Notes: generated by a model from the sequence alone, not told the origin. 64,000 nucleotides of DNA from an uncultured Methanosarcinales archaeon (GCA_964385055.1 CAYLMH010000005.1:2801-66800), one strand, 5' to 3'. Positions 888 through 61,663 are shown, counted from the first letter of the stretch. Numbers and translations are program-made.

Positions 888-1259
888 TTAACGTTTCATC
901 CGTACATCAATATCTTCTGCGATTTTCCGTAATGTCGCGCAGGTTCGTTTCATATCTTCTTCCAATTCATCGATAAGTGCAGAAAGATTATTGACGCGAA
1001 GCATATATCCTTTTTTCTCATAGACCACAAGCCCTGTCTCCATGAGTTTGTTGATGTGATGCACAACAGTTCCACGAGTCAACGTAAGTCGTTCAGCAAG
1101 TTCATCGCTCGTGATGCTTCTGTTTGTTTTTGTTGCTTTCAGCAACTCTATAAAAATGCGAAAGCAGCTTTTGTCTTTGTCGCGAAGATTAAACAAGCCA
1201 AGAGAAGAACCAAACCACTGTAACTCTTCGTTGAGCGAAGGCGTCTCCGGCCGTCGCAT
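888..1259 (-). CDS. Winged-helix (ArsR/MarR-like) transcriptional regulator
   Basis: HTH segment ITSDELAERLTLTRGTVVHHINKLMETGLVVYEKKGY. ATG at 1259 sits about 50 nt downstream of a TATA-like GTTTAAATAAA on the minus strand. The ORF track extends to 1364. Confidence 0.6.
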   Translation of the reverse strand: MRRPETPSLNEELQWFGSSLGLFNLRDKDKSCFRIFIELLKATKTNRSITSDELAERLTLTRGTVVHHINKLMETGLVVYEKKGYMLRVNNLSALIDELEEDMKRTCATLRKIAEDIDVRMKR

Positions 1260-1402
1260 GCGAATAATAGTAATCCTCTGTTGAATTAATGCCATAAAGA
1301 AAAGATGGAGAAACCATTTATTTAAACTTTGTGGAGAGAAAAATAGAATCCAATTTTTTTCCAATGTTTGATCCTATTTTAAAAATTGCGCAGCAAAGAA
1401 AA

Positions 1403-1478
1403 ATACACGCACCCAACGCATGAACGCGTTGGGGACCCAATTGACCACGTCAAAGAAGGACGTGGTCAATTGGGGTCT
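1403..1478 (+). repeat. Intergenic hairpin module, copy 1
   Basis: ATACACGCAC box at 1403-1412. GGGGACCC is followed by a 16-bp stem CCCAATTGACCACGTC/GACGTGGTCAATTGGG and then GGGGTC. Confidence 0.7.
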
Positions 1479-1584
1479 TTATTAGTAAAAATAATATGTG
1501 ACAATCCAGAAATCAAGAAAAGCTAAAAAGATAAAGAAGAGGGAAACAAACAAGAAAAAATAAAGATTATAAGAGAATTGTATT

Positions 1585-5491: not shown

Positions 5492-7048
5492 ATGAGAGGA
5501 AATGATAGAGCAGGATTAAGTGATGTAGTAAAAGAGCGTTTTGCAGAAATGAGAGCAAAACAGCAGGAATTTACAGCAACAGCAGAATTGAGAGAAGTAC
5601 TTCCTCAATTGTACACAGATGAAGCAAGAGCAGCACTAATAGAAACGCTTGCATACCAATACAACATACCTAATGGATACATCCAGCAGGCAGTGAACCA
5701 TTACATTGCGACAGACAATAGCAACGCGAAATGGCTCACCTATTTAGATACAAACAGTGAGTCTGCATTTGTTGCGGTTGAAGAACAACTTGGCTGGAAA
5801 ATAAGAAAAGAAAGTGATGACCAACGCGCAAAAAGAGATGCAATTCAAGCGCGAGTCGCGAAACCAACACGCGATCTTTCTTCAGAAGAATACGATCTTG
5901 CAAGAAAAGAGATTGATATTACTAAACTTGAAACAGATGAAGCACTGTACATCATTGACCTATGGGAACAAACGAATCGAATTGAACAAGCAGCAGAAGC
6001 GGCGAGAAAGATTGGAGTTCCAGTTCTTGGAGTGGAAATCTACGAAAGACGAGGATACTTTGAAGATGCAGCACAAACAGCAGAACAAGCAGGAATGCTA
6101 GAGAGAGCATTGCAAGATTATGAAGCATGCAACAACCATGGACAAGCGGGACAAGTCGCAGAAAAAGTAGCAACGCAAAAGAGAACAGAGCGACAAAAAA
6201 GCAAAGGCATCCAAAGTATGCTTTATGAAGCAGTTGCAGGAGCATACACCCCAGAAGAGCAAAAAATTATAGAACGAGCAATAACAAATTACGAGAAAGC
6301 AGGATGGGTTGAACAAGCAGTCTCATTAGCAGAAAAAATAAACAATTCTGAAAGAGTAATCAGCATTTATGAAAATGCAGGAAAAGCAGAAGCCGCAGCA
6401 GAGTACGCGCTAAAAAAAGGAATGACAAAAAAGTTCTTAGAAATCTGTGAGAAAGAAGGCCACTATGAAATAGCAGAAGGAATTGCAAAAGAAACACAAC
6501 AAAAAGAGCGAGCGCAGCTCTATGAAAAGGTAGACGCAATCATCAAATACGGTCATGACATGGATTTGTATAGAGAAAGAAGACAATTCTTCCTTGATTT
6601 AGAGAGTATGACTGCAGAGGCAGGGAATAATGATGAAGAGGGAGATGGTAAAGAAGAGAGAAAGAATAAAACAAGAGAACAAAAAAGAGGAGAACAAGGA
6701 ATCCTGACTTACTGCAAAAGAAGAATCGCTGAACTCAGAGATTGCATTCTTGTAGAAGGCACATACGAAGCAATCAAAACGTTGTGCGGTGTGGACACCA
6801 CAGGACAACTTATCCAAAAAATGACAATGCCCGCAATTTCTCTGATGGGGTTAGTTGGCTCATGCACCACATATATTGCTCATGATGAACCAAAACCTGA
6901 AGCGCCACAAATAGTATATGAAAGCAGAGAACAAATTCCAACGCCACCAGATATTGCTGTAGAGGAGAAATACCCGCCCCAGAAAGTTCCAGTAACGTAT
7001 CAAACACAGAAAATAGAACAGAAAATAACACGAGGCTGCAGTCATTAA
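5492..7048 (+). CDS. Helical-repeat protein with C-terminal hydrophobic segment (hypothetical)
   Basis: Recurrent Y-E-x-A-G-x-x-E-x-A helical repeats. Hydrophobic MPAISLMGLVGSCTTYI near the C-terminus. GGAGGGATG Shine-Dalgarno-like sequence upstream. Confidence 0.7.
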   Translation: MRGNDRAGLSDVVKERFAEMRAKQQEFTATAELREVLPQLYTDEARAALIETLAYQYNIPNGYIQQAVNHYIATDNSNAKWLTYLDTNSESAFVAVEEQLGWKIRKESDDQRAKRDAIQARVAKPTRDLSSEEYDLARKEIDITKLETDEALYIIDLWEQTNRIEQAAEAARKIGVPVLGVEIYERRGYFEDAAQTAEQAGMLERALQDYEACNNHGQAGQVAEKVATQKRTERQKSKGIQSMLYEAVAGAYTPEEQKIIERAITNYEKAGWVEQAVSLAEKINNSERVISIYENAGKAEAAAEYALKKGMTKKFLEICEKEGHYEIAEGIAKETQQKERAQLYEKVDAIIKYGHDMDLYRERRQFFLDLESMTAEAGNNDEEGDGKEERKNKTREQKRGEQGILTYCKRRIAELRDCILVEGTYEAIKTLCGVDTTGQLIQKMTMPAISLMGLVGSCTTYIAHDEPKPEAPQIVYESREQIPTPPDIAVEEKYPPQKVPVTYQTQKIEQKITRGCSH

Positions 7049-14240: not shown

Positions 14241-14324
14241 CAATATTGTGGAGAGAAGGTGGTATATAAAAGTTTCATCGGAGTAATAAGGATCTGAACA
14301 ATTTTAGAAACGCAAAAAAAATAA

Positions 14325-14611
14325 CACAGACGCACCGCTCGTAGGGCATCCCAATCGCAGCAAGCTGCGGAGTATTGCCCACTCGCAATTCGGTGCGTCT
14401 GTGGAATTGTGAAATTGGGTCACAGCAAGCTGTGGGGTATTATTTCGAGCTATGCTCGTAATACTATGGACCTTTGGTCCAAAGTAAACCCAAATTTCAC
14501 AATAACAACAACGATGGCGGCCTACGGCCAAAACACTGGCTTCGCAACAGTATTTTGTCCTACGGGGCACTCCGAAGGAGCCAAACCACGCCCCGTTGGC
14601 GCCACGTTGTT
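14325..14611. ncRNA. Candidate structured ncRNA, unassigned (three consecutive closed helical domains)
   Basis: GC-rich island in AT-rich DNA. Closing stems are 14325-14337/14391-14403 (13 bp perfect), 14406-14420/14488-14503 and 14504-14518/14598-14611. Inner hairpins are nested. An A-run and a T-run flank it. Confidence 0.45.
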
Positions 14612-14640
14612 ATTTTTTATTATCACTGTTTTATTACCCC

Positions 14641-14705
14641 ATACACGCACGAGCAAAAGCCTTAATGTCAGGGGGACCCATTGCACTTGAGTGCAATGGG
14701 GTTAT
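14641..14705 (+). repeat. Intergenic hairpin module, copy 2
   Basis: ATACACGCAC, 16 nt, TGTCAGGGGGACCC, stem CCCATTGCAC/GTGCAATGGG with loop TTGA, then GGGGTTATTATG. Confidence 0.75.
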
Positions 14706-14785
14706 TATGAAAATTCAATGCATGAAATGTTTCTTTGAAAAACATAAGAATGAAGCAAACTAATGAAAGAATAAACAACTAAAAA

Positions 14786-15496
14786 CTAACCAACATAATT
14801 CATCTGTTTTTCTTTTGCTTCTTCTGTGACGACTTTACTCTTTTCCATAAGTTCCTGCAGCTTTTTCTCAAACCTTTCTGCTGTTTGGACTAGTGGTTTT
14901 GGATCTACTTTTAGCCCTAGATATTTATCAAGCACTTCAATTATTTTTGCCGCTGCTTTGCTATCTGGCAATTTTGAATGCGTATCCGCAAACAACGCGA
15001 CTGTATCTGTTTTTGTTTTGAGGAGCAATGCAGATGTTACGCCGACGATAATTCCTTCCTTTAATGCGTTGACTCCGAGTTTTTTGAAACTCTCGAGCTT
15101 TTTTTGATTAAGTGTATACACATATGCCTGAGATTCTGGCGCTTCAGCAGGGGCACCAACACCTTCAATAGTTATAATCTCTTTTGCGCTGAGCTGCTTT
15201 GCAACTTCATCAATGTACTCTGCGATTGCCCACTCAACACCCATGGTTCCTGTAATCGCGTGAATGATGAGAAGATTATATTCTTGATTGTAATAAAGCC
15301 CGACTGGCGGAACAAGCTCATTATCGTGAACAACAACAGTTGCAGGCATTTCTTCTATCCAGAATGTACCGATAAGCTCGCATTTCAAATGTTGAAGAAG
15401 ATATTCTGTGGTAATTGTTCCGACGAGACCAAATCCCGGGAAGCCTTCGATGATCGTCACATTCTTTGGTTTTTTTGTGAGTTGAATTTGCTGCAT
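14786..15496 (-). CDS. PAC2 (proteasome assembly chaperone) family protein
   Basis: N-terminus IIEGFPGFGLVGTITTEYL is typical of the archaeal PAC2 family. Confidence 0.55.
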   Translation of the reverse strand: MQQIQLTKKPKNVTIIEGFPGFGLVGTITTEYLLQHLKCELIGTFWIEEMPATVVVHDNELVPPVGLYYNQEYNLLIIHAITGTMGVEWAIAEYIDEVAKQLSAKEIITIEGVGAPAEAPESQAYVYTLNQKKLESFKKLGVNALKEGIIVGVTSALLLKTKTDTVALFADTHSKLPDSKAAAKIIEVLDKYLGLKVDPKPLVQTAERFEKKLQELMEKSKVVTEEAKEKQMNYVG

Positions 15497-15547
15497 ACTC
15501 TATTTTTGTGGAAAGGGGTATTTATAGATGTCGGTTTTTTTTTGAAT

Positions 15548-16144
15548 TCATTTGTGGATTCTGTTCCCGCCATACCATGTTAAAAATACATTTCTGAAAT
15601 CACCAGTATATCGTGCTCTTCTTGTTCTATCATCTATCTCCTCTTTGATTTGATGAATATTCACCCACCCTGTTGCTCTCTCGACTACTTCTTCAGGATT
15701 ATATCTAAATGGTCCTTCATATACGGCAGTTAATATTTTTGCAAGTTCATTGTTTCTTCCTCTGTCAGAATTATTTTTAATTGTCGTCCCATTTTGACTC
15801 AAGGTGAAATTTGGAGGACACTCGTCAAGTCCATAAAATATTTCTTCTTTTGCTTCACGATAGCCTGCTTCCCAATAATCTTCTCCATGACGAACATGTC
15901 CTGCAACAGAAGAGTGAAAGCAGAGACCTCCTAATTTTTTTTTTCTGCTTCGCATTGGAAGCAAAAGATCTTGAAGTGTATCATCCCTAAACACTAAAAT
16001 GTGCACAACTCTATGCCTATATCCATACAAATGCGCATTGTCGTATGATGCAATCCCTCGTACCCTATCGTCAAGTGTGACCACATCGAGATATTCAATT
16101 CCCGGTTGGAGGTTTCCTGCTCCGACAAAGCCTTTTGTACCCAT
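15548..16144 (-). CDS. NUDIX hydrolase
   Basis: Nudix box GHVRHGEDYWEAGYREAKEEIFYG (Gx5Ex7REUxEExGU pattern). Confidence 0.7.
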   Translation of the reverse strand: MGTKGFVGAGNLQPGIEYLDVVTLDDRVRGIASYDNAHLYGYRHRVVHILVFRDDTLQDLLLPMRSRKKKLGGLCFHSSVAGHVRHGEDYWEAGYREAKEEIFYGLDECPPNFTLSQNGTTIKNNSDRGRNNELAKILTAVYEGPFRYNPEEVVERATGWVNIHQIKEEIDDRTRRARYTGDFRNVFLTWYGGNRIHK

Positions 16145-16386
16145 AGATTAAGAACCGTTCTTCTCCTTTTTAATACTTCTATATAGACTATAAAGAGATT
16201 TTTGTTCTTCTTCCAAAAGGTCATAATCTTTATAAATAAAACCCTATTTCTCTGTATCGGTAGCTTTCACTATCCTTTAGATGTAAATTATCACATTTTG
16301 AAAATTCATTTGCATACATTAAAAAAGGGGGAATAAACAACAGTGGTGACAATGTCAGTCAATAGAGCGATTGCATGTAACATATC

Positions 16387-17655
16387 ATGGTAGTACTCAC
16401 ATCAGAGCAACTTGAAGAAAGATTTAATACAGAGCGACCCCTTCGTCTTGCAGACCCAATAGATAATTTTGTTCTCTTTGTTGTTGGTGCACATGCTGCT
16501 GGAAAGGATACTATTCTTGGACGAATGCAAGAATTAAGACGAGAAGAGGGTGATGTTCTTCAATATGGTGCATATAGAAAATTAGAATATTGGACCGATC
16601 GTGAACTTCGTGAAGGAGAAGGGATAGTCAGAGAACCTGGTGCAATTCATAAATCCCCTGATGAGTTCCTTGGACACTCCGGAAAATTTCTCGCATGGTA
16701 TCGAAGTAGTAATGGAAGCTTTTACGCGTTTCCTTCTGAGCTTTTTCCTCGAGACAAAGACCCTACAATCGCAATGGTGCACGTTGCGACAGACTTAGGA
16801 TTACAAGTTTGGCAAGAAAATCAAACACTTCCTCATCATATTACTGCATTCATTAATGTTCCTGGAAAAGACGATAGGAAAGCACGGGTACGGTCGCGTT
16901 TGATTGATTCCGAAGGGAATCCTCCTTCTGAAGCAACTCTTGAAGCAAGTCTTGCGGAAATGTCACGTATTAATGCTTTCTTTGTTGGGCATCCTGACCT
17001 TTATGATGTGATGTATAATAACTGTAATCCAAGTGATCGGGGTATAAGAAAAGCAATTTATGGAAATCCACAGGAAAGTGTCCAGAAAGACATTGCTCTT
17101 CGAATTAACGCACTTTGCCATCTTCATCGTGACGCGAGTTTGAGAAGGTCAGGAAATGGTATTTCAATTGCATCGCTTTGTGATCAGTATACTCGAAGAA
17201 TTTCTTCTGATCTCTTTGGTTGTGAGTTGGAAGCACTTAAGACTGATGTTCCTCTAGAGGGTCAAGTTCAGCGTGCTGTTAAAGCCTACGCAGACCAAGC
17301 GCATTTGGATTCTAATAAACTCTATCCCATGCTTGAGCCAGTTACTATTCGCAGTATTGATTTACACCCCCGAGGTTCGGAAAAAGCAGGAGTAGTTGTT
17401 GTTAATCTTACTCCTCAGCATCATATTCCTACTTCTGTTGCTCAATTACTTGTAAGGACTCCGGAGTCTCCTGATTATCATGTTCTTCGCATCCTTGGTC
17501 AACGAATTTACGGAGAAACAAAAACACGACCAGACTATCTTGTTAATAAAAATGGGAATCTTGTAGGGATTTCTTGCTCTCTTAGCGATATGCGACCAAG
17601 AGATCAACAATCAGGACAATATCATCGCTTAGAAATTCGTTTGGGTTATAACTAA
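16387..17655 (+). CDS. Guanylate-kinase-like P-loop domain fused to an uncharacterised 230-aa C-terminal domain
   Basis: Walker A GAHAAGKDT. WTDRELREGEG and FLAWYRSSNGSFYAF resemble GMP-kinase TTRxPRxGE and FLEW..YGT. Confidence 0.5.
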   Translation: MVVLTSEQLEERFNTERPLRLADPIDNFVLFVVGAHAAGKDTILGRMQELRREEGDVLQYGAYRKLEYWTDRELREGEGIVREPGAIHKSPDEFLGHSGKFLAWYRSSNGSFYAFPSELFPRDKDPTIAMVHVATDLGLQVWQENQTLPHHITAFINVPGKDDRKARVRSRLIDSEGNPPSEATLEASLAEMSRINAFFVGHPDLYDVMYNNCNPSDRGIRKAIYGNPQESVQKDIALRINALCHLHRDASLRRSGNGISIASLCDQYTRRISSDLFGCELEALKTDVPLEGQVQRAVKAYADQAHLDSNKLYPMLEPVTIRSIDLHPRGSEKAGVVVVNLTPQHHIPTSVAQLLVRTPESPDYHVLRILGQRIYGETKTRPDYLVNKNGNLVGISCSLSDMRPRDQQSGQYHRLEIRLGYN

Positions 17656-17672
17656 TAAAAAAGTTCTATTCT

Positions 17673-18641
17673 CTATTTTGCGATCTCTTTTTTCTCTTGT
17701 TCCTGAAGCGCATACGTGATTGTTGCCTCAATGTTGTGGACGAGAATTTCTAAAACACTTCTACAATAAACCACAAGCATAAGTTCTTCAGGGGAAATTG
17801 TCTTTTTTACTTGTGCAATTTCTTTTATTAGCGCGTCACGCACTTTATAGATTGTGGTTGCTTTATGATAATCAAATTTGTAAAAAAGATCATAATACAC
17901 GCGAACTGTTCCAAATATTTCACGCAATATACCAATTGTTTTTGGATGAACCTTTTTCATGGTCAAGACTTCTCGCGCAGCATATCTGAGCACGTCTCCT
18001 ATTTTATTGAGGTTCATGAGGATTGCGTACAACAAAATATTCTTGTATTTTTCCGGATACCCTATTCTGTTTAACAATCGCTCACAATATGCGATGAAAA
18101 TAAGGATATTGAAAAATTTTTGATCCATTGTTTCCAAAAGAACTTTATCGTCGTTTTCACATGCTTTCACAAACTCATCGCACGCATCCATAAGAAGAAG
18201 GAATGTTCGTCGTAACATGGATTCTAGCTCTTCAAATGATGGCTTTGAGATGCTTTTATAGACAAAATAATTTTCTTTCTGCTCAATGATTTGCATTCCA
18301 ACCCAGCGGCGGAGTTCTTCATGAAGCAATGTTGCGACTAAGACTTTCTCTCCAGTTCTATAATGCACTGCTGTTTTGTTCTTGAAATTTACTTTTATAA
18401 TATCATATCCTCTTCTGTACGCAGCGCGGAGAACGATGAATATGGATGTTCTATCAAGATCTGTGATGTCTAATGTAATTTCCTGAAGTGTATCTTCACG
18501 CTTCGTTGAAACTTCAAGCATATTGTCCTTTTCAACGACTTCTAGTTCATCGCCTTTTTTGACATTATACTTTTTCGTCCATTGTCTTGGAAGAGAAATT
18601 AATTGTGTCGAATCCGCAATCTGAATTACTTTTCGTCCCAT
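17673..18641 (-). CDS. AbrB/SpoVT-domain plus PhoU-like regulator
   Basis: N-terminus VIQIADSTQLISLPRQWTKKYNVKKGDELEV (AbrB swapped-hairpin type) followed by a helical PhoU-like repeat region. Confidence 0.6.
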   Translation of the reverse strand: MGRKVIQIADSTQLISLPRQWTKKYNVKKGDELEVVEKDNMLEVSTKREDTLQEITLDITDLDRTSIFIVLRAAYRRGYDIIKVNFKNKTAVHYRTGEKVLVATLLHEELRRWVGMQIIEQKENYFVYKSISKPSFEELESMLRRTFLLLMDACDEFVKACENDDKVLLETMDQKFFNILIFIAYCERLLNRIGYPEKYKNILLYAILMNLNKIGDVLRYAAREVLTMKKVHPKTIGILREIFGTVRVYYDLFYKFDYHKATTIYKVRDALIKEIAQVKKTISPEELMLVVYCRSVLEILVHNIEATITYALQEQEKKEIAK

Positions 18642-18736
18642 GAAGTATAGAATTGCTTACAAGTATATATATTTTGCTGTGCTTTTATATAATCCTTATC
18701 TTTTATTAACGGTCTCTTATCTACCTTATAGATTGC

Positions 18737-19747
18737 TTACACAATCCACACTTTATCGTCGATTATTGCGACAAGAACTTCTTTCTTTTCTCCTTTTTGA
18801 TATATTTCAGGATTCTCTACTTTTACGCTTTGGTATGTTTCTGGATGAAGGATTTCAACATCTGGGTATTCTTTTGTAATCTGGACTCTTCTGAACGTTT
18901 CTGGTGTTGCGCAGATTTTCATGCGCGCTTTCTCGTCAATCGTTGTTCGTTTTCCGTTTTTAAGATTTGTTCCTTGCAATTGTTTTCCAATATTGGTGAG
19001 TTTTAGGTATTTCTTTTCATACTCGACAATCGTGTTTACTTTGTACGATGGAAGTCGCACGCTTGCGTTAACCCGGTAAATGTCTTTGCTCGTTTGTCTG
19101 CTCTTGCTGTACAGTTCACCATGTGTTTTTCCTACTGCCCCGAATTTTTCGACGATTTTGTTGGTGATGATGGGAAGATATTGCTGTTTTGTGACGTAGT
19201 AATCAATGCCATTGGTGACTTCTTCCATTTTGGTTACAAACACGCCTTTTTCATTTGCGCGACCTACTTCCTGAAGAATGAATTCATGCGCTTTTTTGAG
19301 GACTTCTTTGTTTTCTCCTCGAAGTTGCAGAATTCCTTCAAAATATTCTGTTCTTGCTCGTGTGCATTTATCGCACATAATATGTTTTACTTTTATTGGA
19401 AATTCATGTTCTTCAAGGAGTTTTTGTTCATCGATCGTCGCTTCTGTCCGAAGCGTGACTGTTCCCATCTGCACTTTTCCATGCTCTGCTTTTAATTCAA
19501 TGTCTACATCAATCGCATCTGGTTGAATAATGAAATTGCAATGCTGCACCACTGCTTCTTTCATCGCTTCTTCTTCAGGTTTTGGATGCTTCCACTCTCT
19601 TTGATATTTGTAGGAACCGCAACTTTCGCAAATAAGCAGCGTATGCTCTTGATACGACTTCAATGTGGTGTGTTTTTTGCTGAAGCACTCATTACACAAG
19701 ACCGCGTTTTTCTGCTCTACTGCTTTTCCACATTGGATGCATTTCAT
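18737..19747 (-). CDS. NMD3 family (ribosomal large-subunit export/maturation) protein
   Basis: N-terminal Cys clusters CIQCGK..CNEC and CESCGSYKYQREW. Confidence 0.7.
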   Translation of the reverse strand: MKCIQCGKAVEQKNAVLCNECFSKKHTTLKSYQEHTLLICESCGSYKYQREWKHPKPEEEAMKEAVVQHCNFIIQPDAIDVDIELKAEHGKVQMGTVTLRTEATIDEQKLLEEHEFPIKVKHIMCDKCTRARTEYFEGILQLRGENKEVLKKAHEFILQEVGRANEKGVFVTKMEEVTNGIDYYVTKQQYLPIITNKIVEKFGAVGKTHGELYSKSRQTSKDIYRVNASVRLPSYKVNTIVEYEKKYLKLTNIGKQLQGTNLKNGKRTTIDEKARMKICATPETFRRVQITKEYPDVEILHPETYQSVKVENPEIYQKGEKKEVLVAIIDDKVWIV

Positions 19748-19881
19748 ATTGGTGAGTGTGCTTTGTTCCTATATAAACTTATGTTGCCTAAACTCCTTTC
19801 TCCCTGTTGCTTTTCTGTCACTACCAAATAATAGTAAATCTAGGGGAACCTTTAAATATAACCTCGAATTTAACGTTTATT

Positions 19882-20760
19882 ATGGGGTCATTAAGAAAAT
19901 TTCCTGGTTTAGAAGTACTTATGGAGGCTCTTCAAAAAGACACTGGTCTCCTTGACATGGCAATAACAGGTATTCCTGAATCACAACAAGAAATTCTGTA
20001 CACTACTCTTTTAGGGATGTCTCCAGAAGAGAGGCATAGGCTCTTGAGAATTTGCATCACGCATGGTTCTGAAGATCGTTCTTTTCTTCTTCAAACAATA
20101 GGAAATGGACTTATTGACAAACTCACTGCCGTTTATAATCGAACAAAATTTAACACTGATCTGAATGCAGCAATTGAAGTTGTTGATCGTACTTATCAGC
20201 TTCCTGCTCTCTTACAAAAAGAAAGACGATTAGAAGCGGTTTTAGGTCTTCCTCCTCGAGCATCTGCATCTCATAGTGATGTTACTCTACTCCTTCTTGA
20301 TATTGACAAATTTAAACGTGTTAATGATGTTTATGGACATCCAACAGGCGATCGTGCTCTTCAGCTCGTTGCAACAATTGCTGTTCAAAGTCTTCGCTTA
20401 GATGATCATCAACGCTTTTATCGATATGGTGGCGAAGAGTTTGCGGTTATATTACCTTATACTTCTCTTGAGCAGGGAATTATTGTTGCAGAACGTATTC
20501 GTCAGAATGTTGAGGAGAGACTCGCAGATTCACTTCCTAAAAAAGGGAGATCTCCTATTCGAGGAATTACTGTTTCTGTAGGTCTTGCAAACTATCGCGC
20601 AACAACAGCCATGGCGACTGAACTTATTAATCAGGCGGACTTTGCATTATATGCCGCAAAATATGCGGGAAGAAATTGTGTGAGAGTATACGACCAATCT
20701 CTGCTTGGAACGAAAGTGCAATCTGCCTATCTCAGAAAGTTGCAAAAAGAAGAGCAATAA
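19882..20760 (+). CDS. GGDEF-domain diguanylate cyclase
   Basis: DKLTAVYNRTKF, LLLLDIDKFKRVNDVYGHPTGD and RYGGEEFAVILP. Start chosen at ATG 19882; the ORF track begins at TTG 19807. Confidence 0.8.
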   Translation: MGSLRKFPGLEVLMEALQKDTGLLDMAITGIPESQQEILYTTLLGMSPEERHRLLRICITHGSEDRSFLLQTIGNGLIDKLTAVYNRTKFNTDLNAAIEVVDRTYQLPALLQKERRLEAVLGLPPRASASHSDVTLLLLDIDKFKRVNDVYGHPTGDRALQLVATIAVQSLRLDDHQRFYRYGGEEFAVILPYTSLEQGIIVAERIRQNVEERLADSLPKKGRSPIRGITVSVGLANYRATTAMATELINQADFALYAAKYAGRNCVRVYDQSLLGTKVQSAYLRKLQKEEQ

Positions 20761-20800
20761 AACCCAAACATTTTTAACGTTCCTTCTTTCATCTTTTTTT

Positions 20801-21427
20801 ATGCAATTTAAGGAAATACTCAAAAAAACATGGTGGTTTATCTGGGAAAGCGATAGCTGGTGGAGTTGGCCAGTAAACCTACTTCTCGCGTTTATTCTCA
20901 TTAAATTTATTGTGTATCCTGGTTTAGGGTTTATTTTTGGCACCGCGTTTCCTGTTGTCGCTGTTGTTTCTGGAAGTATGGAGCATGATGGAAGTTTTTC
21001 AGATTGGTGGCTGAGTAGCGCGTATTGTTCAGCATCTTGCTCTCAAGAGGATTGGTACGCAGGATATGGCATTACTGAGGAGCAATTTAAGGAATTCTCT
21101 TTCAAAAATGGTTTTAACAAAGGAGACATTATGGTTCTGAAAGGGGTGGAACCTAAAAATATTAAAATTGGAGATGTTTTAGTATTTCAAAGCGCGTATG
21201 GAAATGAGCCCATTATTCATCGTGTTGTCGCAATTTTTGGTGATGAAACGACTGGTTTTGTGTACCAAACAAAAGGGGATCACAATGGTGATTCTGGCAA
21301 TATTGATAAAGAAATTCAACAAGATGCAGTGTATGGAAAAGCAATATTCCGGATTCCATTCCTGGGCTGGATTAAGATTGCGTTTGTGTGGCTTTTCAGC
21401 CCGTTCATTGATCTTGTTTTTGGTTAA
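20801..21427 (+). CDS. Signal peptidase I (archaeal Sec11/S26B type)
   Basis: TM anchor, catalytic Ser box VVSGSME, IIHRV box and KGDHNGDSG. Confidence 0.75.
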   Translation: MQFKEILKKTWWFIWESDSWWSWPVNLLLAFILIKFIVYPGLGFIFGTAFPVVAVVSGSMEHDGSFSDWWLSSAYCSASCSQEDWYAGYGITEEQFKEFSFKNGFNKGDIMVLKGVEPKNIKIGDVLVFQSAYGNEPIIHRVVAIFGDETTGFVYQTKGDHNGDSGNIDKEIQQDAVYGKAIFRIPFLGWIKIAFVWLFSPFIDLVFG

Positions 21428-21457
21428 TATGTTTTATAATTATTGAGGTGGTTTACG

Positions 21458-21772
21458 ATGATGTTTTGTCCAAAATGTGGAGGATTACTTCTTCCAAAAG
21501 TAGATGGCAACAAAAAAACAATGCACTGCAAATGCGGTTATAGTACAAAGCAGGTTGACAGCGCAGTTATTTCTGAAAGAATGCAGGAAAAACAGGCAAT
21601 TAGTGTTGTAGAGAAGGAAATTGAACCACACCCGCTCACGATTGCAGAATGCCCTAAATGCAAGCATCGCAAGGCATATTTCTGGACAGTGCAGACAAGA
21701 GCTTCTGACGAACCAGAAACAAAGTTCATGAAATGCGAGAAATGCGAGCATGTCTGGCGGGATTATAGTTAG
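21458..21772 (+). CDS. tfs: Transcription factor S (TFS / RpoM-like)
   Basis: Two zinc ribbons (CPKCGG..CKCGY; CPKCKH..CEKCEH) and an acidic-loop motif QTRASDEPET. GAGGTG lies 8 nt upstream of the ATG. Confidence 0.85.
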   Translation: MMFCPKCGGLLLPKVDGNKKTMHCKCGYSTKQVDSAVISERMQEKQAISVVEKEIEPHPLTIAECPKCKHRKAYFWTVQTRASDEPETKFMKCEKCEHVWRDYS

Positions 21773-21777
21773 AACTT

Positions 21778-21800
21778 TGTTTTTTTTGTTTGCTTTTTGT
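21778..21800 (+). terminator. Oligo-T terminator
   Basis: GTTTTTTTTGTTTGCTTTTTGTT starts 6 nt after the tfs stop. Confidence 0.45.
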
Positions 21801-21881
21801 TGCAATTAAAAAAATATATAAAGCAGGTGCTACTCTATATATTTTCGAAAATAGTATAAAGATCCGTTTGGAGGTGTCTGT

Positions 21882-22076
21882 ATGGCAGGCGAAGATGACG
21901 ACAGCTTTTTAGAAGAAGATGCAGGAGATAAAGATCAACAGAACTTTGATGAGGATGTTGATAACGATGAGATCACTCCTGGAGAAGAAGGATTCTTACA
22001 AGGTTATGATTCTGCTGAAGGCGAAAGCGAAGAAAAAACAGAGAAGCCTAAAGAAGAAGAGGAAGAAGGAAAGTAA
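21882..22076 (+). CDS. Small highly acidic protein (hypothetical)
   Basis: 64 aa, Asp/Glu-rich, with GGAGGTG upstream of the ATG. Confidence 0.5.
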   Translation: MAGEDDDSFLEEDAGDKDQQNFDEDVDNDEITPGEEGFLQGYDSAEGESEEKTEKPKEEEEEGK

Positions 22077-22159
22077 GGTTTTCTTTTTTATTTTTTTATT
22101 TCTGATTATTTGATCTTTTGTATTTCTTATCATGTTAATTGTTCTAATTTTTAGTAAAC

Positions 22160-22216
22160 ACACCATTGCTGCTGCAATGGGTCCCCCTGACATTTTGCCT
22201 TTGCAGATGCGTGTTT
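22160..22216 (-). repeat. Intergenic hairpin module, copy 3a (reverse orientation)
   Basis: The reverse complement reads AAACACGCAT, 13 nt, AATGTCAGGGGGACCC, then stem CCATTGC/GCAATGG. Confidence 0.7.
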
Positions 22217-22277
22217 TGTGTTGCCTGGCGTTTGCTACTTATTTAACTGCTTCTTAATCGCCAAGATAACTTTATTG

Positions 22278-22318
22278 CCAGGGGGACCCACGCAACGCGA
22301 AGCATTGCGTGGGGTTTT
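22278..22318 (+). repeat. Intergenic hairpin module, copy 3b (no ACACGCAC box)
   Basis: TTGCCAGGGGGACCC, stem CCCACGCAA/TTGCGTGGG, then GGGGTTTT. Confidence 0.7.
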
Positions 22319-22391
22319 ATGGAAAAAGTATAGTTAAAGTGAACAAAAAGAGTAAAGAACAAAGCAAGAGAGGAAATAACAAAAAACATAA

Positions 22392-43797: not shown

Positions 43798-43941
43798 GAA
43801 TTTGTTCGATTTCTTGCAGAAAGTTTAGTACTCATCAGTATGTTTACTGAGAATAATTATAAGAAAGACATAGGGATTCACAAGGACAGCAAGGCGATTC
43901 AAACAACAATGAAGCAAACAGTTGCTCAGTAGCAAAAGAGA

Positions 43942-44002
43942 ATACACGCACTAGAAAACCTTTTACTGTCAGGGGGACCCATTGCGTGAGCAATGGGGTT
44001 TT
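43942..44002 (+). repeat. Intergenic hairpin module, copy 4
   Basis: ATACACGCAC, 15 nt, CTGTCAGGGGGACCC, stem CCCATTGC/GCAATGGG with loop GTGA, then GGGGTTTTG. Confidence 0.75.
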
Positions 44003-44070
44003 GTTATATTTTTAATAGAACATAATGAAAAATCAGGAACAAAAAGAATATAAAAAAATCAAAAAATCAA

Positions 44071-44524: not shown

Positions 44525-45148
44525 ATGGTCTACGTTGTGCAGCCGACAACAAGGATACTTTTTTCTATGGTTCTTGAAGACACAGCAGTGCAGGATTTTC
44601 TTGAAACAATGAAGAGACATCACGCAGATACTGCGCTTCACTCGAAAAGAGTAGGGGTATATACTCTGGATATATATGTCACAAAACACATGGCAACGGA
44701 AAGCGGTATAATCGTCATAACACAAGACAATCTCAGCGAAGCATTACGCTGGGGTGCTGCGGGAGTATATCATGATGCAGGAAAATTATTAACTCCTGTT
44801 GAAATATTAGCAAAGCCAGGAAAGCTCGATGAGAAAGAAAGAGCAAGAATGAATAGGCATCCTCTCCTTGGACTTCAGATTTTAGATGAGTATACAAGAG
44901 ATGAAGCAGCGTATCATGCTGCAGTAGGACACCATGAATATAAAACAGGAGCATCATATCCACGACACAAAAGAAGAGGGGAAGATGAACTTGTCGAAGC
45001 AGTTGCGCTTGCGGATTTCTACGATGCGCTGGCAAGTAAACGAGGATACAAACCGGCATTTTCAAAAGATGAAATAGAACGAATAATGCACGAAGAATTT
45101 AATGGAAACCCACAACATCTTGATGAACTTTTAAGAAGATCTGCATAA
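44525..45148 (+). CDS. HD-GYP-type phosphohydrolase
   Basis: HSKRVG, YHDAGKLLTP, RMNRHP and GHHEYKTGASYPR (an HHExxxGxxYP variant). Confidence 0.7.
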   Translation: MVYVVQPTTRILFSMVLEDTAVQDFLETMKRHHADTALHSKRVGVYTLDIYVTKHMATESGIIVITQDNLSEALRWGAAGVYHDAGKLLTPVEILAKPGKLDEKERARMNRHPLLGLQILDEYTRDEAAYHAAVGHHEYKTGASYPRHKRRGEDELVEAVALADFYDALASKRGYKPAFSKDEIERIMHEEFNGNPQHLDELLRRSA

Positions 45149-45359
45149 CACGGAAACGCCACTTACATTATGCTCGTCTATCCCATGCCTTTAGGCATGG
45201 GTTTTACGGCTTGCAAACTAATGGTGGCGTTTCCGTGGGATGTAAAATCGGCGCTTACGGAATCTCTGCGCTACATCCTCGCACTAAATGCGCAAAACTC
45301 GTTTTGCGTATATTACAAATCGCAGATTTGAAATAGTGCAAGGTTTTGCGCCGATTTTT
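45149..45359. ncRNA. Structured GC-rich element in a convergent gap (ncRNA or compound bidirectional terminator)
   Basis: 14-bp stem CACGGAAACGCCAC/GTGGCGTTTCCGTG (45149-45162/45224-45237) encloses CCCATGCC/GGCATGGG. AAAATCGGCGC (45244-45254) pairs with GCGCCGATTTT (45348-45358) around further hairpins. Confidence 0.4.
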
Positions 45360-50849: not shown

Positions 50850-50977
50850 ACGTATTTGCTTACACGCACCAGCAACGCTTCTCTGTAGTCTAGCATCGCA
50901 AAAAGTATCTTTATATTTTTATTAAAAGAAATCAAGAAAAGACATTTAAACTTCCCGAAAATTATACTTATTATATT

Positions 50978-51062
50978 GCCGGCGTGGCACAATCTGGCTA
51001 CTGCGGTGGTCTCGAAAACCACTTCTCGAAAGGGAGTCTCGGTTCAAATCCGAGCGCCGGCG
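50978..51062 (+). tRNA. tRNA-Ser (anticodon CGA), type II with long variable arm
   Basis: Hand-folded. Acceptor GCCGGCG/CGCCGGC, anticodon stem GTGGT/ACCAC with loop CTCGAAA, variable arm TCTC-GAAA-GGGA, T arm CTCGG-TTCAAAT-CCGAG, discriminator G, followed by TTTTTT. No encoded CCA. Confidence 0.85.
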
Positions 51063-51133
51063 TTTTTTCTTATCAGATTTGAACATGCACAAAAATTCTG
51101 CGAATTTTTGGCACCTCTTCGTAAACTCAGAGG

Positions 51134-58744: not shown

Positions 58745-59152
58745 ACGCAACAACCCTCTTTTTTTATAATAAAAATAATGAATAATCGCAACACACTTGT
58801 CTTTTTCCGTAATTTATGGGTATATATACTTTGTGTTTTATGTCACTAAAATATAGAGGGAAAAGTGAAACTTGATGGTTGTGAAAAAAAAAGAAGTCGC
58901 ATTTATTTTTTCAAAATCAAGCACTAAGAAAGAAAAAGCAAGTAATATTTCCTAAACCTCAAGTAGTAACAAAATTCTTGCACAACCTTTAAAAAAGAGC
59001 CGTGCTTCCACAGAACAAGAGAAAACAATCGCTCAACAGCCGACAAAACACGCACCCGCAAAGATCTACTACACAATTTAACCTTTTATTAATTAGTGTA
59101 AAATAATATCAGAAAATAACAAAAAACAAGCGAACGAAACGAGGTAACAACA

Positions 59153-60772: not shown

Positions 60773-60840
60773 TTTTTTTACTATTTTATTTCTTCTTATT
60801 CTTTTTTTTCATACCACCACGTTTTTCTAGTTTAAAGTCC

Positions 60841-60905
60841 ACACACAATCGCTTAGTTTGCTTGAATGTCAGGGGGACCCAATTTACCAAAGTAAATTGG
60901 GGTTA
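60841..60905 (+). repeat. Intergenic hairpin module, copy 5
   Basis: ACACACAATCGC variant box, AATGTCAGGGGGACCC, stem CCCAATTTAC/GTAAATTGGG with loop CAAA, then GGGGTTATTATG. Confidence 0.75.
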
Positions 60906-60958
60906 TTATGAAAAGAAAATGCAAAATAATAAATGAAAAAGAATAAACAAAAAAGAAA

Positions 60959-61615
60959 TCAAAGTCCTCGCGGATCCTTATGAGGAACATAAATCCCAGT
61001 AAAATCCATATCAATGAGAACACGTGATATCCTTTCTGCCACTTCATTATTGGATCTATGTCTTGCTGATGAATTATAGAGTACACCATCTTCAAGATCA
61101 AGAATAACACTCAGTACTTGAGATCCCCAAGGCATTGGCTCAAGAGCAGCAAGTTCAACAACTTCAAAAGGATCAAGATGGTAAAGAGTTTCAAAAAGAG
61201 GAAGAAGCGTATGTTCTGAAATTCCCTTCCAACCACCAACAATCCGCACCTGATAAGGTCCTGGACTATTAAATTTCTTGAGATCATGAGCAAGTTTTAG
61301 AAGAAAATGTGGTTCCCGATCATTAGGATGTGGTTTAATTCCCTTACGATTATCCAAATGCGCAATGCAACCAACCTTTGTTTTCGGATCATAAACAGTA
61401 AGACCTATGCAAACACTAAGACCTAAGGTTTCAAGATATCGAGTATAGTGAGGATCTCCTCCGCGCGAGAAAGAGTACATGCGCTGTGGAACACTCACAA
61501 CAGCGTCATCACAAGGAAGAGGATCAAGATACATTCGAGGAACCGGCTGATTTGGAGCATAGCGCTTCATGTACTGATCTACCCGTGCTGCAAGTTCTGT
61601 TGTTACTACTTCCAT
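60959..61615 (-). CDS. CheD-like (chemoreceptor glutamine deamidase family) domain protein with N-terminal extension
   Basis: TLGLSVCIGLTVYDPKTKVGCIAHL aligns position-for-position with my recollection of the CheD core (roughly TLGLGSCVAVCMRDP..VG..AH), including the Thr, Cys and His triad positions. A later IVGGW matches the CheD GG motif. Confidence 0.5.
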   Translation of the reverse strand: MEVVTTELAARVDQYMKRYAPNQPVPRMYLDPLPCDDAVVSVPQRMYSFSRGGDPHYTRYLETLGLSVCIGLTVYDPKTKVGCIAHLDNRKGIKPHPNDREPHFLLKLAHDLKKFNSPGPYQVRIVGGWKGISEHTLLPLFETLYHLDPFEVVELAALEPMPWGSQVLSVILDLEDGVLYNSSARHRSNNEVAERISRVLIDMDFTGIYVPHKDPRGL

Positions 61616-61663
61616 AAGGTAAAGAAAAGAAGAAATGTTTATAAAAGTTGCTCAGAAAATGAA

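What the first reader, a model, noticed from the sequence alone, without database searches (positions are those of the whole stretch)
14641..14705. Dispersed intergenic hairpin module with invariant flanks and a covarying stem (at least 6 copies in 64 kb)
Copies lie at 1403-1478 (+), 14641-14705 (+), 22160-22216 (-), 22278-22318 (+), 43942-44002 (+) and 60841-60905 (+). The architecture is (A)TACACGCAC box, about 15-19 nt, (A/C)TGTCAGGGGGACCC, hairpin, GGGGTT(A/T)T. The exact 10-mer ATACACGCAC occurs at 1403, 14641 and 43942. TGTCAGGGGGACCC occurs at 14666, 43967, 60867 and as reverse complement at 22179. The helix always opens CCCA and closes TGGG. Its interior differs between copies with fully compensatory changes: ATTGCAC/GTGCAAT, ATTGC/GCAAT, AATTTAC/GTAAATT, ACGCAA/TTGCGT and AATTGACCACGTC/GACGTGGTCAATT. 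Every copy sits 54-107 nt beyond the stop codon of a gene that converges on it: the genes ending at 1585, 14786, 22076, 22392, 44071 and 60959. A plain terminator needs neither the conserved single-stranded flanks nor the upstream box. A covarying stem with fixed flanks fits better with a protein-recognised hairpin (REP/RAYT-like), a small-RNA family, or a dedicated 3'-end processing signal. I know of no described archaeal element of this form.
Basis: seen in the sequence. Interest (0 to 1): 0.75.

Follow-up and report, generated by a model that had tools for sequence, protein, structure and literature searches.

The report
Archaeal REP-like mosaic hairpin repeats
A small DPANN (Woesearchaeota) archaeon carries about one copy every 5-10 kb of a modular intergenic repeat, made of an invariant tag, a perfect hairpin of variable sequence and a set of upstream boxes; the copies point the same way along the chromosome rather than following their neighbouring genes, which resembles bacterial REP/BIME elements, a kind I found no report of in archaea.

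Summary
The window holds exactly six copies of A-N-TGTCAGGGGGA + perfect hairpin (CCCA...TGGG) + GTNTTAT. A related metagenomic genome (Ga0247727, about 80% nucleotide identity) holds at least 65 more.

The stem covaries strongly: 22 arm variants, 95.7% of cells paired, and compensatory changes even between orthologous copies. The tag, the stem base and the upstream boxes are invariant, while loops and spacers have diverged almost completely.

The element is bigger than reported. It is a nested mosaic of up to about 150 nt, with boxes about 21-22 nt apart. Some copies form head-to-head doublets.

The "always converging on a gene end" rule is a small-sample effect. In 65 copies, 17 are sense and 17 antisense in co-directional gaps, and 9 lie between divergent genes. 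Only 5 of 69 tails carry T5 or more, so it is not a plain terminator.

Orientation instead follows a contig-scale AT skew that is independent of gene strand (12/12 contigs). Stems are almost purely Watson-Crick. Synteny breaks sit at copies.

There is no match in Rfam, none in viral contigs, and no multi-copy occurrence of the strict motif in GTDB representative genomes.

Best reading (about 0.4): a REP/BIME-like DNA hairpin repeat. A small-RNA family (about 0.3) is not excluded.

The parts
1376..1482 (+). Copy c1 (medium form). It comprises an A/T-rich stretch plus a Y-like box ATTGCGCAGCAAAG, X box ATACACGCAC (1403-1412), a spacer with its own 8-bp hairpin (1412-1433), the tag GGGGA (the TGTCA part is replaced), a 16-bp hairpin (1436-1474) and the tail GTCTTTAT.
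   Evidence: 33.8 bits. The orthologous copy in L030 keeps the Y and X boxes but has a completely different hairpin.
14641..14708 (+). Copy c2 (short form; the finding's coordinates). It comprises X box 14641-14650, a 15-nt spacer, tag TGTCAGGGGGA 14666-14676, a 10-bp hairpin CCCATTGCAC-ttga-GTGCAATGGG 14677-14700 and the tail GTTATTAT.
   Evidence: 64.7 bits. Orthologous to the L007 copy at 6646-6691.
22154..22217 (-). Copy c3, one half of a head-to-head doublet. It comprises the X-box variant AACACGCATC (its complement lies at 22207-22216), tag TGTCAGGGGGA, and an 8-bp hairpin whose outermost pair is broken.
   Evidence: 44.4 bits.
22218..22272 (.). Shared inner region of the c3/c4 doublet. 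AATCGCC at 22256-22262 is the B box of c4 on the + strand and the G box GGCGATT of c3 on the - strand.
   Evidence: The same architecture is seen in the L007, L017 and L021 doublets.
22256..22321 (+). Copy c4 (class B). It comprises AATCGCC, a 13-nt stretch, tag TGCCAGGGGGA (22276-22286), a 12-bp hairpin with a conserved C.A mismatch (22287-22313) and the tail GTTTTATG.
   Evidence: 46.9 bits.
43853..44005 (+). Copy c5 (full-length form). It comprises an A/T-rich left end, L1 box GGGATTCACAAGGAC (43873-), G2 box GGCGATT (43893-43899), Y box TTGCTCAG (43922-43929), X box (43942-43951), tag (43967-43977), an 8-bp hairpin (43978-43997) and the tail.
   Evidence: 58.3 bits. All boxes are conserved in the orthologous L039 copy, while the stretches between them have diverged.
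60841..60909 (+). Copy c6 (class B-like). It comprises ACACACAATCGCTTAG, tag 60867-60877, a 10-bp hairpin 60878-60901 and the tail GTTATTAT.
   Evidence: 59.1 bits. The ortholog in L070 shows an A-T to C-G compensatory change and a stem one pair longer.
50860..50900 (+). Partial copy: an X box plus spacer (TTACACGCACCAGCAACGC...), with no tag and no hairpin.
59020..59062 (+). Partial copy: Y box AATCGCTCAACAGC plus X box AACACGCACCCGCAAAG, with no tag and no hairpin. It lies about 95 nt upstream of the thermosome start codon.
45182..45201 (.). A hairpin CCCATGCC-ttta-GGCATGGG with the family's CCCA/TGGG stem base but no tag. It is doubtful as a member.
   Evidence: 11 bits, E = 0.3.

Best explanation
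This is a lineage-specific family of REP/BIME-like mosaic intergenic repeats in a Woesearchaeota (DPANN) genome.

The unit. The unit is a 12-nt tag (A-N-TGTCAGGGGGA), then a perfect palindrome of 7-16 bp whose base is fixed (CCCA...TGGG) and whose interior is free, then the tail GTNTTAT.

The upstream boxes. The unit sits at the 3' end of a nested series of sequence boxes spaced about 21-22 nt apart: L1 GGGGATTC, G2 GGCGATTC, Y TTGCTCAG and X ACACGCACC. These boxes are not folded into any structure. Two units can also face each other as an inverted doublet.

Inferred mechanism. The element acts at the DNA level. The palindrome extrudes as a single-strand hairpin, for example on one template strand at the replication fork. 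A structure- and sequence-specific protein reads it together with its tag. By analogy this would be a HUH/Y1 nuclease of the RAYT/TnpA type, but no such protein has been identified here.
- This would fix the element's orientation relative to replication rather than to genes.
- Intra-hairpin templated correction would keep the stems strictly Watson-Crick while their sequence drifts.
- The upstream boxes would be accessory protein-binding motifs, like the non-palindromic motifs of BIMEs.

Consequences for the host. Copies behave as recombination hot spots, with inversions and gene-content breaks at their positions. Any transcript that crosses a copy also gains a stable hairpin.

Shown versus inferred. 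Shown: the anatomy, copy number, covariation, conservation pattern, gene context, orientation polarity and restriction to one lineage. Inferred: recognition as single-stranded DNA, the coupling to replication, the nature of the protein, and mobility.
For: 1. High copy number in one narrow lineage. There are 6 copies in the 64-kb window and 65 in 430 kb of Ga0247727 loci. In 185,579 GTDB representative genomes the strict motif gave only 5 single, chance-like hits, all in unrelated bacteria and none in an archaeon. Viral contigs gave only unrelated hits. In 120 kb from five sister lineages there is one orthologous copy.

2. Orientation follows the chromosome, not the genes. In contigs with at least 4 copies, 51 of 61 copies share the majority orientation (p = 3e-5). 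In 12 of 12 contigs with at least 2 copies the majority orientation matches the sign of the AT skew after correction for gene strand. Per locus the odds ratio is 14.7 and Fisher p = 9e-6. Contig 186 has genes 24+/46- but elements 6+/2-.

3. Gene context is close to random. The counts are convergent 22, co-directional sense 17, co-directional antisense 17 and divergent 9.

4. Stems are 671 Watson-Crick, 3 G.U and 6 mismatched pairs, across 22 arm types. Most two-sided changes are transversion flips that have no wobble intermediate.

5. The roughly 100 nt upstream has conserved boxes but no consensus RNA structure. L1 to G2 is exactly 21 nt in 21 of 24 copies.

6. Mosaic organisation. There are nested 5' forms, three upstream classes and 4 inverted doublets with cores about 100 nt apart.

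7. Synteny with the 80%-identical genome breaks at copies. An inverted block is bounded by c2 and c3/c4. The hairpin is swapped and an extra gene is present at c1. A hypervariable gene interval abuts c6.

8. The tail is not a terminator: only 5 of 69 copies have T5 or more.

9. The same conservation pattern, a conserved palindrome inside diverged flanks, is the classic REP observation. This point rests on my own knowledge; the Higgins 1988 review is known to me only as a title in the reference list of PMC3733652, and I did not read it.
Against: - No RAYT/IS200-type Y1 transposase was found in about 690 kb of six-frame translation.
- Copies are old, with loops and spacers saturated, yet no decayed cores exist: covariance-model scores fall either at 48 bits or more, or at 26 or less. 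Orthologous copies also keep every box. This indicates selection on each copy, which a purely selfish element does not predict.
- No clean filled-versus-empty site pair and no target-site duplication was found.
- The two halves of a doublet have different stems, unlike true terminal inverted repeats.
- Full-length copies carry a BRE/TATA-like left end (19 of 23 at 4 bits or more).
- One copy tolerates a 100-nt structured insert in its loop.
- Which strand is the leading strand could not be established, and the link between the skew and replication is inferred.
Confidence: 0.4

Rival explanations
1. A family of small non-coding RNA genes, or a cis-acting RNA module. Full-length copies would be transcribed from the A/T-rich left end into an RNA of about 110-125 nt. 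That RNA would carry several single-stranded GG(G/C)GAUUC-type boxes and end in a protein-bound 3' hairpin. Shorter forms would be read as 3'-UTR modules of the upstream gene.
For: - Every box is under per-copy purifying selection at orthologous loci, and compensatory stem changes occur.
- The left end is BRE/TATA-like in 19 of 23 full-length copies, and the predicted start clusters 12-18 nt into the L1 box.
- A U-containing tail follows the hairpin only on the sense strand.
- Many short forms start 30-80 nt after the stop of a co-directional gene.
- One hairpin carries a large structured loop insert.
- A strong co-orientation with replication is also what highly expressed RNA genes show.
Against: - There is no consensus structure or covariation outside the terminal hairpin.
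- Short and medium forms have no promoter at a fixed position.
- The tail rarely has the oligo-T that archaeal termination needs (5 of 69).
- G.U pairs are almost absent (3 of 680).
- The variable spacer is not conserved between orthologs, so it is not a guide.
- There is no Rfam match.
- Orientation ignores the neighbouring genes.
Confidence: 0.3
2. A host-maintained polar DNA site. In this reading an array of protein-binding boxes two helical turns apart plus an extrudable palindrome is used for a replication- or segregation-linked chromosome function. It would be comparable in logic to KOPS, Ter or other architecture-imparting polar sequences, and it would not be mobile.
For: - Orientation shows contig-scale polarity tied to compositional skew.
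- Boxes are spaced 21 nt apart.
- All boxes are under per-copy selection and no decayed cores exist.
- The density of about one copy per 5-10 kb is similar to that of KOPS (the KOPS density is from my own knowledge).
- Stems are strictly Watson-Crick.
Against: - The family is restricted to a very narrow clade, whereas sister lineages at similar distance show none in the regions sampled.
- Copies vary widely in length and box content (65-200 nt).
- Copies sit at rearrangement breakpoints, and c6 is present in some relatives and absent in others.
- No candidate binding protein was identified.
Confidence: 0.15
3. Ordinary, possibly bidirectional, transcription terminators or mRNA-stabilising hairpins at gene ends.
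For: - All six window copies face a converging gene end.
- Convergent gaps are enriched about two-fold (22 of 65 copies against 125 of 604 gaps).
- The stem has a G+C-rich base followed by T-rich sequence.
Against: - 9 copies lie in divergent gaps, and in co-directional gaps sense equals antisense (17:17).
- Only 5 of 69 tails have T5 or more.
- An invariant 12-nt tag and up to four upstream boxes are not needed for termination.
- Orientation follows the skew, not the genes.
Confidence: 0.05

Closest known systems
REP / BIME elements of enterobacteria and REPIN-RAYT systems of Pseudomonas
   Same: - A palindromic unit of about 35-45 nt with a conserved tag on one side.
- About a hundred or more extragenic copies.
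- Single units, inverted doublets, and mosaics with other conserved non-palindromic motifs.
- Restriction to one lineage.
- The palindrome is conserved while the flanks diverge.
- Association with rearrangements.
   Different: - The host is archaeal (DPANN).
- The tag is TGTCAGGGGGA, not GTAG or CGTC.
- The stem interior varies freely (22 arm types), whereas REP has a few fixed types.
- The two halves of a doublet have different stems.
- No RAYT gene was found.
- There is strong orientation polarity along contigs.
- The upstream boxes are arranged as a 21-nt periodic array.
IS200/IS605 family and its miniature derivatives (single-strand 'peel and paste' transposition)
   Same: - Recognition of a subterminal hairpin plus an adjacent short sequence on one DNA strand.
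- Insertion orientation biased with respect to replication. [quoted passage not shown]
   Different: - There is no transposase gene and no pair of like-oriented left and right hairpins.
- No defined cleavage tetranucleotide was identified.
- Copies are old and stable at orthologous loci.
Modular intergenic repeats of bacteria (pneumococcal BOX, Neisseria Correia/NEMIS, ERIC) and prokaryotic MITEs
   Same: - A modular, nested build from a few boxes.
- About 100 intergenic copies.
- Possible promoter-like ends.
- A MITE census reports a Woesearchaea genome with 105 MITEs per Mb (PMC11602168).
   Different: - There are no matching terminal inverted repeats and no target-site duplications.
- Conservation is confined to boxes and to stem pairing, rather than spread over the whole element.
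- I could not check whether the Woesearchaea MITEs of that census are this family; its supplements are not held.
Polar chromosomal motifs (KOPS, Chi, Ter)
   Same: - Strong co-orientation over more than 100 kb that follows strand asymmetry.
- A density of one per several kb.
   Different: - Those motifs are short oligomers that also occur inside genes, without hairpins or mosaic structure.
- They are bound by known proteins (FtsK, RecBCD, Tus).

Membership tests
REP/BIME (REPIN-RAYT) | Short extragenic palindrome in high copy number | tested here: met
   71 copies, with palindromes of 20-39 nt. All but 3 lie outside called genes, and those 3 are probably gene-call errors.
REP/BIME (REPIN-RAYT) | Conserved GTAG or CGTC tag at one end of the palindrome | tested here: not met
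   A tag is present and invariant, but it is A-N-TGTCAGGGGGA. It is neither GTAG nor CGTC (definition from PMC3733652).
REP/BIME (REPIN-RAYT) | Inverted doublets or clusters, mosaic with other motifs | tested here: met
   4 head-to-head doublets, three upstream classes and nested forms.
REP/BIME (REPIN-RAYT) | A cognate single-copy RAYT (Y1 HUH transposase) gene flanked by REPs | tested here: inconclusive
   No hit in about 690 kb of six-frame translation by motif search and phmmer.
MITE | Matching terminal inverted repeats, target-site duplication, and copies similar along their whole length | tested here: not met
   Doublet ends share only the tag and the stem base, and their stems differ. 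No direct repeat was seen at the flanks (read directly from the sequences). Interiors have diverged except for the boxes.
IS200/IS605-derived miniature element | Left and right subterminal hairpins in the same orientation, with guide and cleavage tetranucleotides | tested here: not met
   The full-length unit has a hairpin at one end only, and doublets are inverted.
Intrinsic or oligo-T transcription terminator | Lies downstream of genes in the sense orientation, with an oligo-T tract (5 or more in archaea, from my own knowledge) | tested here: not met
   Sense equals antisense in co-directional gaps, and 9 copies lie in divergent gaps. T5 or more occurs in 5 of 69 copies.
Any Rfam family (including C/D box, H/ACA, HgcC-type archaeal sRNAs) | Covariance-model match | tested here: not met
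   No match at the gathering score in the whole window. Only chance-level hits at E up to 10 around c2 and c5. No C/D boxes or H/ACA pocket were seen in the sequence.
Integron attC site | Complementary R''/R' core sites (RYYYAAC / GTTRRRY), extrahelical bases, and same-orientation arrays of cassettes | tested here: not met
   The two flanks are not complementary to each other (TGTCAGGGGGA against GTNTTAT). The stems are perfect. Copies are dispersed among housekeeping genes.
Small protein gene on the reverse strand | Conserved reading frame | tested here: not met
   Every copy has NTG-GGT-CCC-CCT-GAC on the reverse strand. The ORFs are 6-70 codons long, and the X box is read in all three frames.

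The most novel reading that the evidence does not exclude
The modules are host-maintained, replication-polar chromosome elements of a DPANN archaeon. In this reading, periodic protein-binding boxes plus an extrudable hairpin are kept intact at about 100 sites by selection on each copy. They would be used to orient or organise a replication-, repair- or segregation-linked process. That would be an archaeal counterpart of KOPS/Ter-type polar sequences, built from hairpins.
Probability: 0.15. Interest if true: 0.85.

Novelty: new variant of a known kind. Interest (0 to 1): 0.6.

Why it matters
REP/BIME and REPIN-RAYT systems have so far been described in bacteria; this is my own knowledge, and my literature searches found no archaeal case. 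A comparable mosaic hairpin repeat in a genome-reduced DPANN archaeon would have several consequences.

- It would show that such elements arise and persist in archaea, and even in streamlined genomes. Here they fill a sizeable share of the scarce intergenic space.
- The orientation polarity gives a sequence-only marker of replication direction in uncultured archaea whose origins are unknown. It also points to a strand-specific, single-stranded-DNA step that can be tested.
- The copies coincide with inversions and with gene-content hot spots between close relatives, so they probably shape genome rearrangement in this lineage.
- If the RNA reading is right instead, this is a new multi-copy archaeal RNA family of about 100 members.

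Tried and rejected
- Rfam, whole window at gathering score and E-value mode around c2 and c5: nothing.
- Scan of GTDB representative genomes with the strict motif: only 5 single, chance-like bacterial hits.
- Viral contigs: 17 hits, all unrelated G+C-rich phage sequences without the hairpin.
- Reverse-strand small ORF (MGPPD...): rejected because the frames are not conserved.
- Forward ORF from the ATG before GGGGATTC: rejected. That triplet is ATA, TTA or TTG in many copies, and the indels are not in multiples of three.
- Structured RNA across the whole unit: RNAalifold finds only the terminal hairpin.
- K-turn, C/D box, H/ACA, attC and origin-recognition-box (ORB) readings: considered from the sequence and dropped, because the defining motifs or geometry are absent.
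- Fixed-position promoter for all copies: not found. Only the full-length left end, and on the reverse strand the 3' flank, look TATA-like. Both are A/T-rich conserved sequence, so this is weak evidence.
- RAYT/TnpA search by regular expression and by phmmer with remembered sequences: no hit.
- First gene-context analysis with longest-ORF calls: judged unreliable because purine-rich genes give long antisense ORFs. It was redone with a codon-usage model and gave the same conclusion.
- tRNA orientation as a way to assign the leading strand: too few tRNA genes.
- Supplement of the MITE census: not held.

Full report

The window has exactly six occurrences of GGGGACCC (0.15 expected). Each is followed by a perfect hairpin that opens CCCA and closes TGGG. 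TGTCAGGGGGACCC occurs four times exactly and once with one mismatch. ATACACGCAC occurs three times.

A covariance model built from 68 copies (alignment A2, model R1) recovers exactly these six in the window, at 33.8-64.7 bits. It finds nothing else on the sense strand above 12 bits.

On the 68-copy alignment the stem is paired in 95.7% of cells, and 6 of 10 pairs change on both sides. The covariation score is 0.311, against 0.062 for shuffles (0 of 500 reach it) and at most 0.06 for slid partners.

2. WHOSE GENOME, AND WHERE ELSE THE FAMILY OCCURS

Flanking genes are archaeal: PAC2, Pth2, thermosome, arginyl-tRNA synthetase and TFS. Exact protein look-ups place the window on a 67.8-kb NCBI MAG contig whose close relatives are labelled Woesearchaeota or Nanoarchaeota.

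Results of the strict motif scan (GTCAGGGGGACCCA-N8-38-TGGGGT; the viral scan used a form one base shorter):
- GTDB representative genomes (185,579): only five single, chance-like hits in unrelated bacteria.
- Public metagenome contigs: 58 loci, about 50 of them on some 15 large contigs of one metagenome, Ga0247727, plus one short contig from Ga0209541.
- Viral contigs: only unrelated sequences.

The Ga0247727 genome is syntenic with the window at about 80% nucleotide identity, so orthologous copies can be compared. The covariance model finds 65 copies in the 430 kb fetched from it. All score 48.8 bits or more, and nothing falls between 26 and 48 bits. Cores are therefore either intact or absent.

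One contig that is fully covered by the fetched loci has 6 copies in 28.9 kb.

In 120 kb from five sister lineages (thermosome 78-96% identical) only one copy was found, the ortholog of c6.

3. ANATOMY

The invariant part is A-N-TGTCAGGGGGA, then the stem, then G-T-N-T-T-(A/T)-T.

Stems are 7-16 bp. There are 22 different 5' arms among 71 copies. The commonest are CCCATTGCAC (31 copies) and CCCATTGC (22 copies). Of 680 stem pairs, 671 are Watson-Crick, 3 are G.U and 6 are mismatches. Five of the six mismatches are one conserved C.A in a single subfamily. Loops are nearly random: 11 different loops occur among the 31 copies that share an identical stem.

The element extends much further upstream than reported. 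Twenty-four copies share a unit of about 150 nt:

AATAAATAAT-AAAGACAT-GGGGATTC-TCAAGGACTGTAA-GGCGATTC-...-(GGCGAATA)TTTGCTCAGCA-...-ACACGCACC-AGCAAAAGC..-TGTCAGGGGGA-hairpin

Shorter copies are nested 5' truncations: Y+X+core, or X+core. I distinguished three upstream classes:
- Class A, the common arrangement, with the Y box upstream of the X box.
- Class C, in which the order of the X and Y boxes is swapped.
- Class B, in which AATCGCC sits about 13 nt before the tag. This AATCGCC is the reverse complement of the G box (GGCGATT) of a partner copy about 100 nt away on the other strand.

There are four such head-to-head doublets, one of which is c3/c4 in the window.

Box spacing is regular. 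L1 to G2 is exactly 21 nt in 21 of 24 copies, and X to TGTCAG is 21-24 nt.

RNAalifold on the full-length copies predicts only the terminal hairpin, and individual folds of the upstream part disagree with one another. The unit is non-coding on both strands.

4. CONSERVATION PATTERN

Between orthologous copies the boxes, the tag and the stem pairing are kept, while the spacers, loops and flanks have diverged.
- c5 against L039: all five boxes are kept, and the stem differs by two pairs.
- c6 against L070: an A-T pair has become C-G, and the stem has gained one pair.
- c1 against L030: the Y and X boxes are kept, but the spacer and hairpin are entirely different, and the window has an extra 84-codon gene next to the hairpin.

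Copies are therefore old, stably inherited and individually constrained. They are not recent duplicates. Templated correction or replacement of the stem is an alternative to per-copy selection for the stem itself.

5. GENE CONTEXT

Genes of this organism are purine-rich, which produces long spurious antisense ORFs. I therefore recalled genes with an iterated codon-usage model.

Of 65 copies with two called neighbours:
- 22 lie in convergent gaps;
- 17 lie in co-directional gaps in the sense orientation;
- 17 lie in co-directional gaps in the antisense orientation;
- 9 lie in divergent gaps.

The background is 125 convergent, 359 co-directional and 120 divergent gaps. There is a two-fold preference for convergent gaps, but no sense bias and no exclusion from promoter-side gaps. 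The six-out-of-six convergence in the window is a sampling effect.

Only 5 of 69 tails contain T5 or more, and 35 have no run longer than TT. A gene terminator or a dedicated mRNA 3'-end signal is therefore not an adequate explanation.

6. ORIENTATION IS POLAR ALONG THE CHROMOSOME

When copies are mapped onto contig coordinates, they are strongly co-oriented within contigs: 11 of 12, 6 of 6, 5 of 5, 4 of 4, 5 of 6 and 6 of 8. In total 51 of 61 copies share the majority orientation (simulation p = 3e-5).

I then split the base skew of coding sequence by gene strand. This reveals an AT-skew component that does not depend on gene orientation and is constant in sign along each contig (-0.06 to -0.14 in most contigs, +0.105 in contig 186, +0.085 in the window). 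In all 12 contigs with at least two copies, the majority element orientation has the sign of this component. Per locus the association has an odds ratio of 14.7 and Fisher p = 9e-6, although copies are not fully independent.

Gene-strand counts do not explain it. Contigs 276 and 186 both have about two-thirds of their genes on the minus strand, yet their elements point in opposite directions.

The sense strand of the element lies on the A-rich strand. I take this skew to be replication-associated; that is an inference. I could not tell which strand is the leading one, because there are too few tRNA genes.

7. REARRANGEMENTS

Relative to Ga0247727, the window block 14643-22118 is inverted with respect to its flanks. 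All junctions fall in copies: c2, c3/c4, the L007 doublet and the L034 copy.

The thermosome-ferredoxin interval next to c6 carries different genes in every relative examined, and c6 itself is present in only two of six.

8. PROMOTERS

Protein genes here have a sharp TTTATAAA box starting 28-31 nt before the ATG, which indicates leaderless mRNAs. A weight matrix built from them gives the following results.
- No shared promoter position exists for the family as a whole.
- The conserved A/T-rich left end of full-length copies scores 4-7.6 bits in 19 of 23 copies. The predicted start lies 12-18 nt into the L1 box.
- The reverse complement of the 3' tail scores 4 bits or more in 42% of copies.

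Because these are conserved A/T-rich family sequences, this is a lead rather than a demonstration. It does keep the small-RNA reading alive.

9. INTERPRETATION

The following features point to action at the DNA level on an extruded single-strand hairpin read together with its tag:
- orientation tied to the chromosome rather than to transcription;
- almost exclusively Watson-Crick stems;
- two-sided stem changes that are mostly transversion flips with no wobble path;
- unstructured but periodically spaced boxes;
- inverted doublets and a mosaic build;
- breakpoints at copies;
- a very narrow phylogenetic range.

This is the logic of REP/BIME and of IS200/IS605-type elements. For the latter, excision and insertion at the lagging-strand template are documented (PMC3333891).

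Templated correction of quasi-palindromes is established knowledge from bacterial mutagenesis work and was not tested here. It would produce perfectly compensated arms without any RNA-level selection. The covariation is therefore not by itself evidence for an RNA.

Against a purely selfish element stand three observations: the per-copy conservation of every box, the absence of decayed cores, and the failure to find a Y1 transposase.

My probabilities are:
- REP/BIME-like DNA hairpin repeat: about 0.4;
- small-RNA or cis-RNA family: about 0.3;
- non-mobile polar host site: about 0.15;
- plain terminator: about 0.05.

10. COMPARISON AND NOVELTY

The family shares with REP/BIME the unit design, copy number, doublets, mosaicism and conservation pattern. 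It fails the GTAG/CGTC tag criterion, and the RAYT criterion is untested in full. I therefore describe it as working like REP/BIME, not as a member of that family.

It is not a MITE in the strict sense, because it has no matching terminal repeats and no target duplication. It matches no Rfam family.

A census of MITEs notes a Woesearchaea genome with 105 MITEs per Mb (PMC11602168). I could not check whether that is this family.

I rate it a new variant of a known kind. It would be the first such element I am aware of in archaea, and its replication-polar orientation is the most interesting and most testable property.

Noticed in passing
window 14326-14615 (+), and L057 9541-9645: There are three consecutive G+C-rich 'closed domains' of 78-115 nt at 14326-14403, 14410-14499 and 14500-14615. 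Each is shut by a perfect 12-15 bp helix, and they lie between the ArgRS start and copy c2. There is no Rfam hit even at E = 10. The third domain has a homolog in the related genome (L057), again followed by an element copy in the same orientation. These are probably unannotated structured RNAs of an unknown class.
   Followed up: partly
window 45141-45358: Two more closed domains of the same architecture lie in a convergent intergenic gap: CACGGAAACGCCAC...GTGGCGTTTCCGTG and AAAATCGGCGC...GCGCCGATTTT. The first encloses a CCCATGCC-ttta-GGCATGGG-TTTT hairpin that shares the family's stem base but lacks the tag.
   Followed up: partly
L025 4150-4250 (-) and L010 7690-7860 (-): One element copy has a 100-nt structured insert in its hairpin loop. 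The insert is homologous (GAGCGTACGACCGAACG...GTCGTAC...CTCGCTTCCAATT...GGCGAAAGAATTG) to a sequence that follows an X box without a hairpin in L010. Only two copies of this sequence were found in the loci held.
   Followed up: partly
window 14643-22118 versus L007/L034 (Ga0247727_10000752): This 7.5-kb block is inverted relative to its flanks between the two genomes, which are about 80% identical. Window 14285-14642 (the closed domains) has no counterpart at the corresponding junction.
   Followed up: partly
window 60773-61663 and L064, L069, L070, L071-L073 downstream of the thermosome gene: The interval between the thermosome and the ferredoxin gene holds a different set of small genes in every close relative. 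These include unknowns and, nearby, toxin-antitoxin pairs. It is a gene-content hot spot.
   Followed up: partly
whole window and Ga0247727 loci: Protein genes have a sharp TTTATAAA box starting 28-31 nt before the ATG, so most mRNAs are probably leaderless. Coding strands are purine-rich (AT and GC skew about +0.1), which creates long spurious antisense ORFs. On top of this there is a strong AT skew that does not depend on gene strand, of up to 0.14 in absolute value and constant in sign along each contig.
   Followed up: yes
window 50860-50976; L019, L043, L056, L062 (X boxes without a core): Several X boxes that lack the tag and hairpin are followed about 30-45 nt later by a conserved GTATCTT(T/C)A(T/A)ATATTTTT motif. 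In the window this arrangement lies upstream of tRNA-Ser (50977-51063). The X box may therefore have a role of its own in upstream regions.
   Followed up: no
all copies, reverse strand of the tag (for example window 14672-14686): The reverse complement of the stem base plus tag always reads NTG-GGT-CCC-CCT-GAC, with NTG being ATG (57 copies), TTG (10) or GTG (1), all of them start codons. A TATA-like tail lies about 20 nt upstream. The downstream frames are not conserved, so I treat this as coincidence.
   Followed up: yes
window 888-1364 (-): A winged-helix (HTH_11/HTH_20/MarR-like) regulator gene starts 12-40 nt from the upstream end of copy c1, divergently oriented. The same arrangement appears at the orthologous L030 locus. 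No general association with copies was tested.
   Followed up: no
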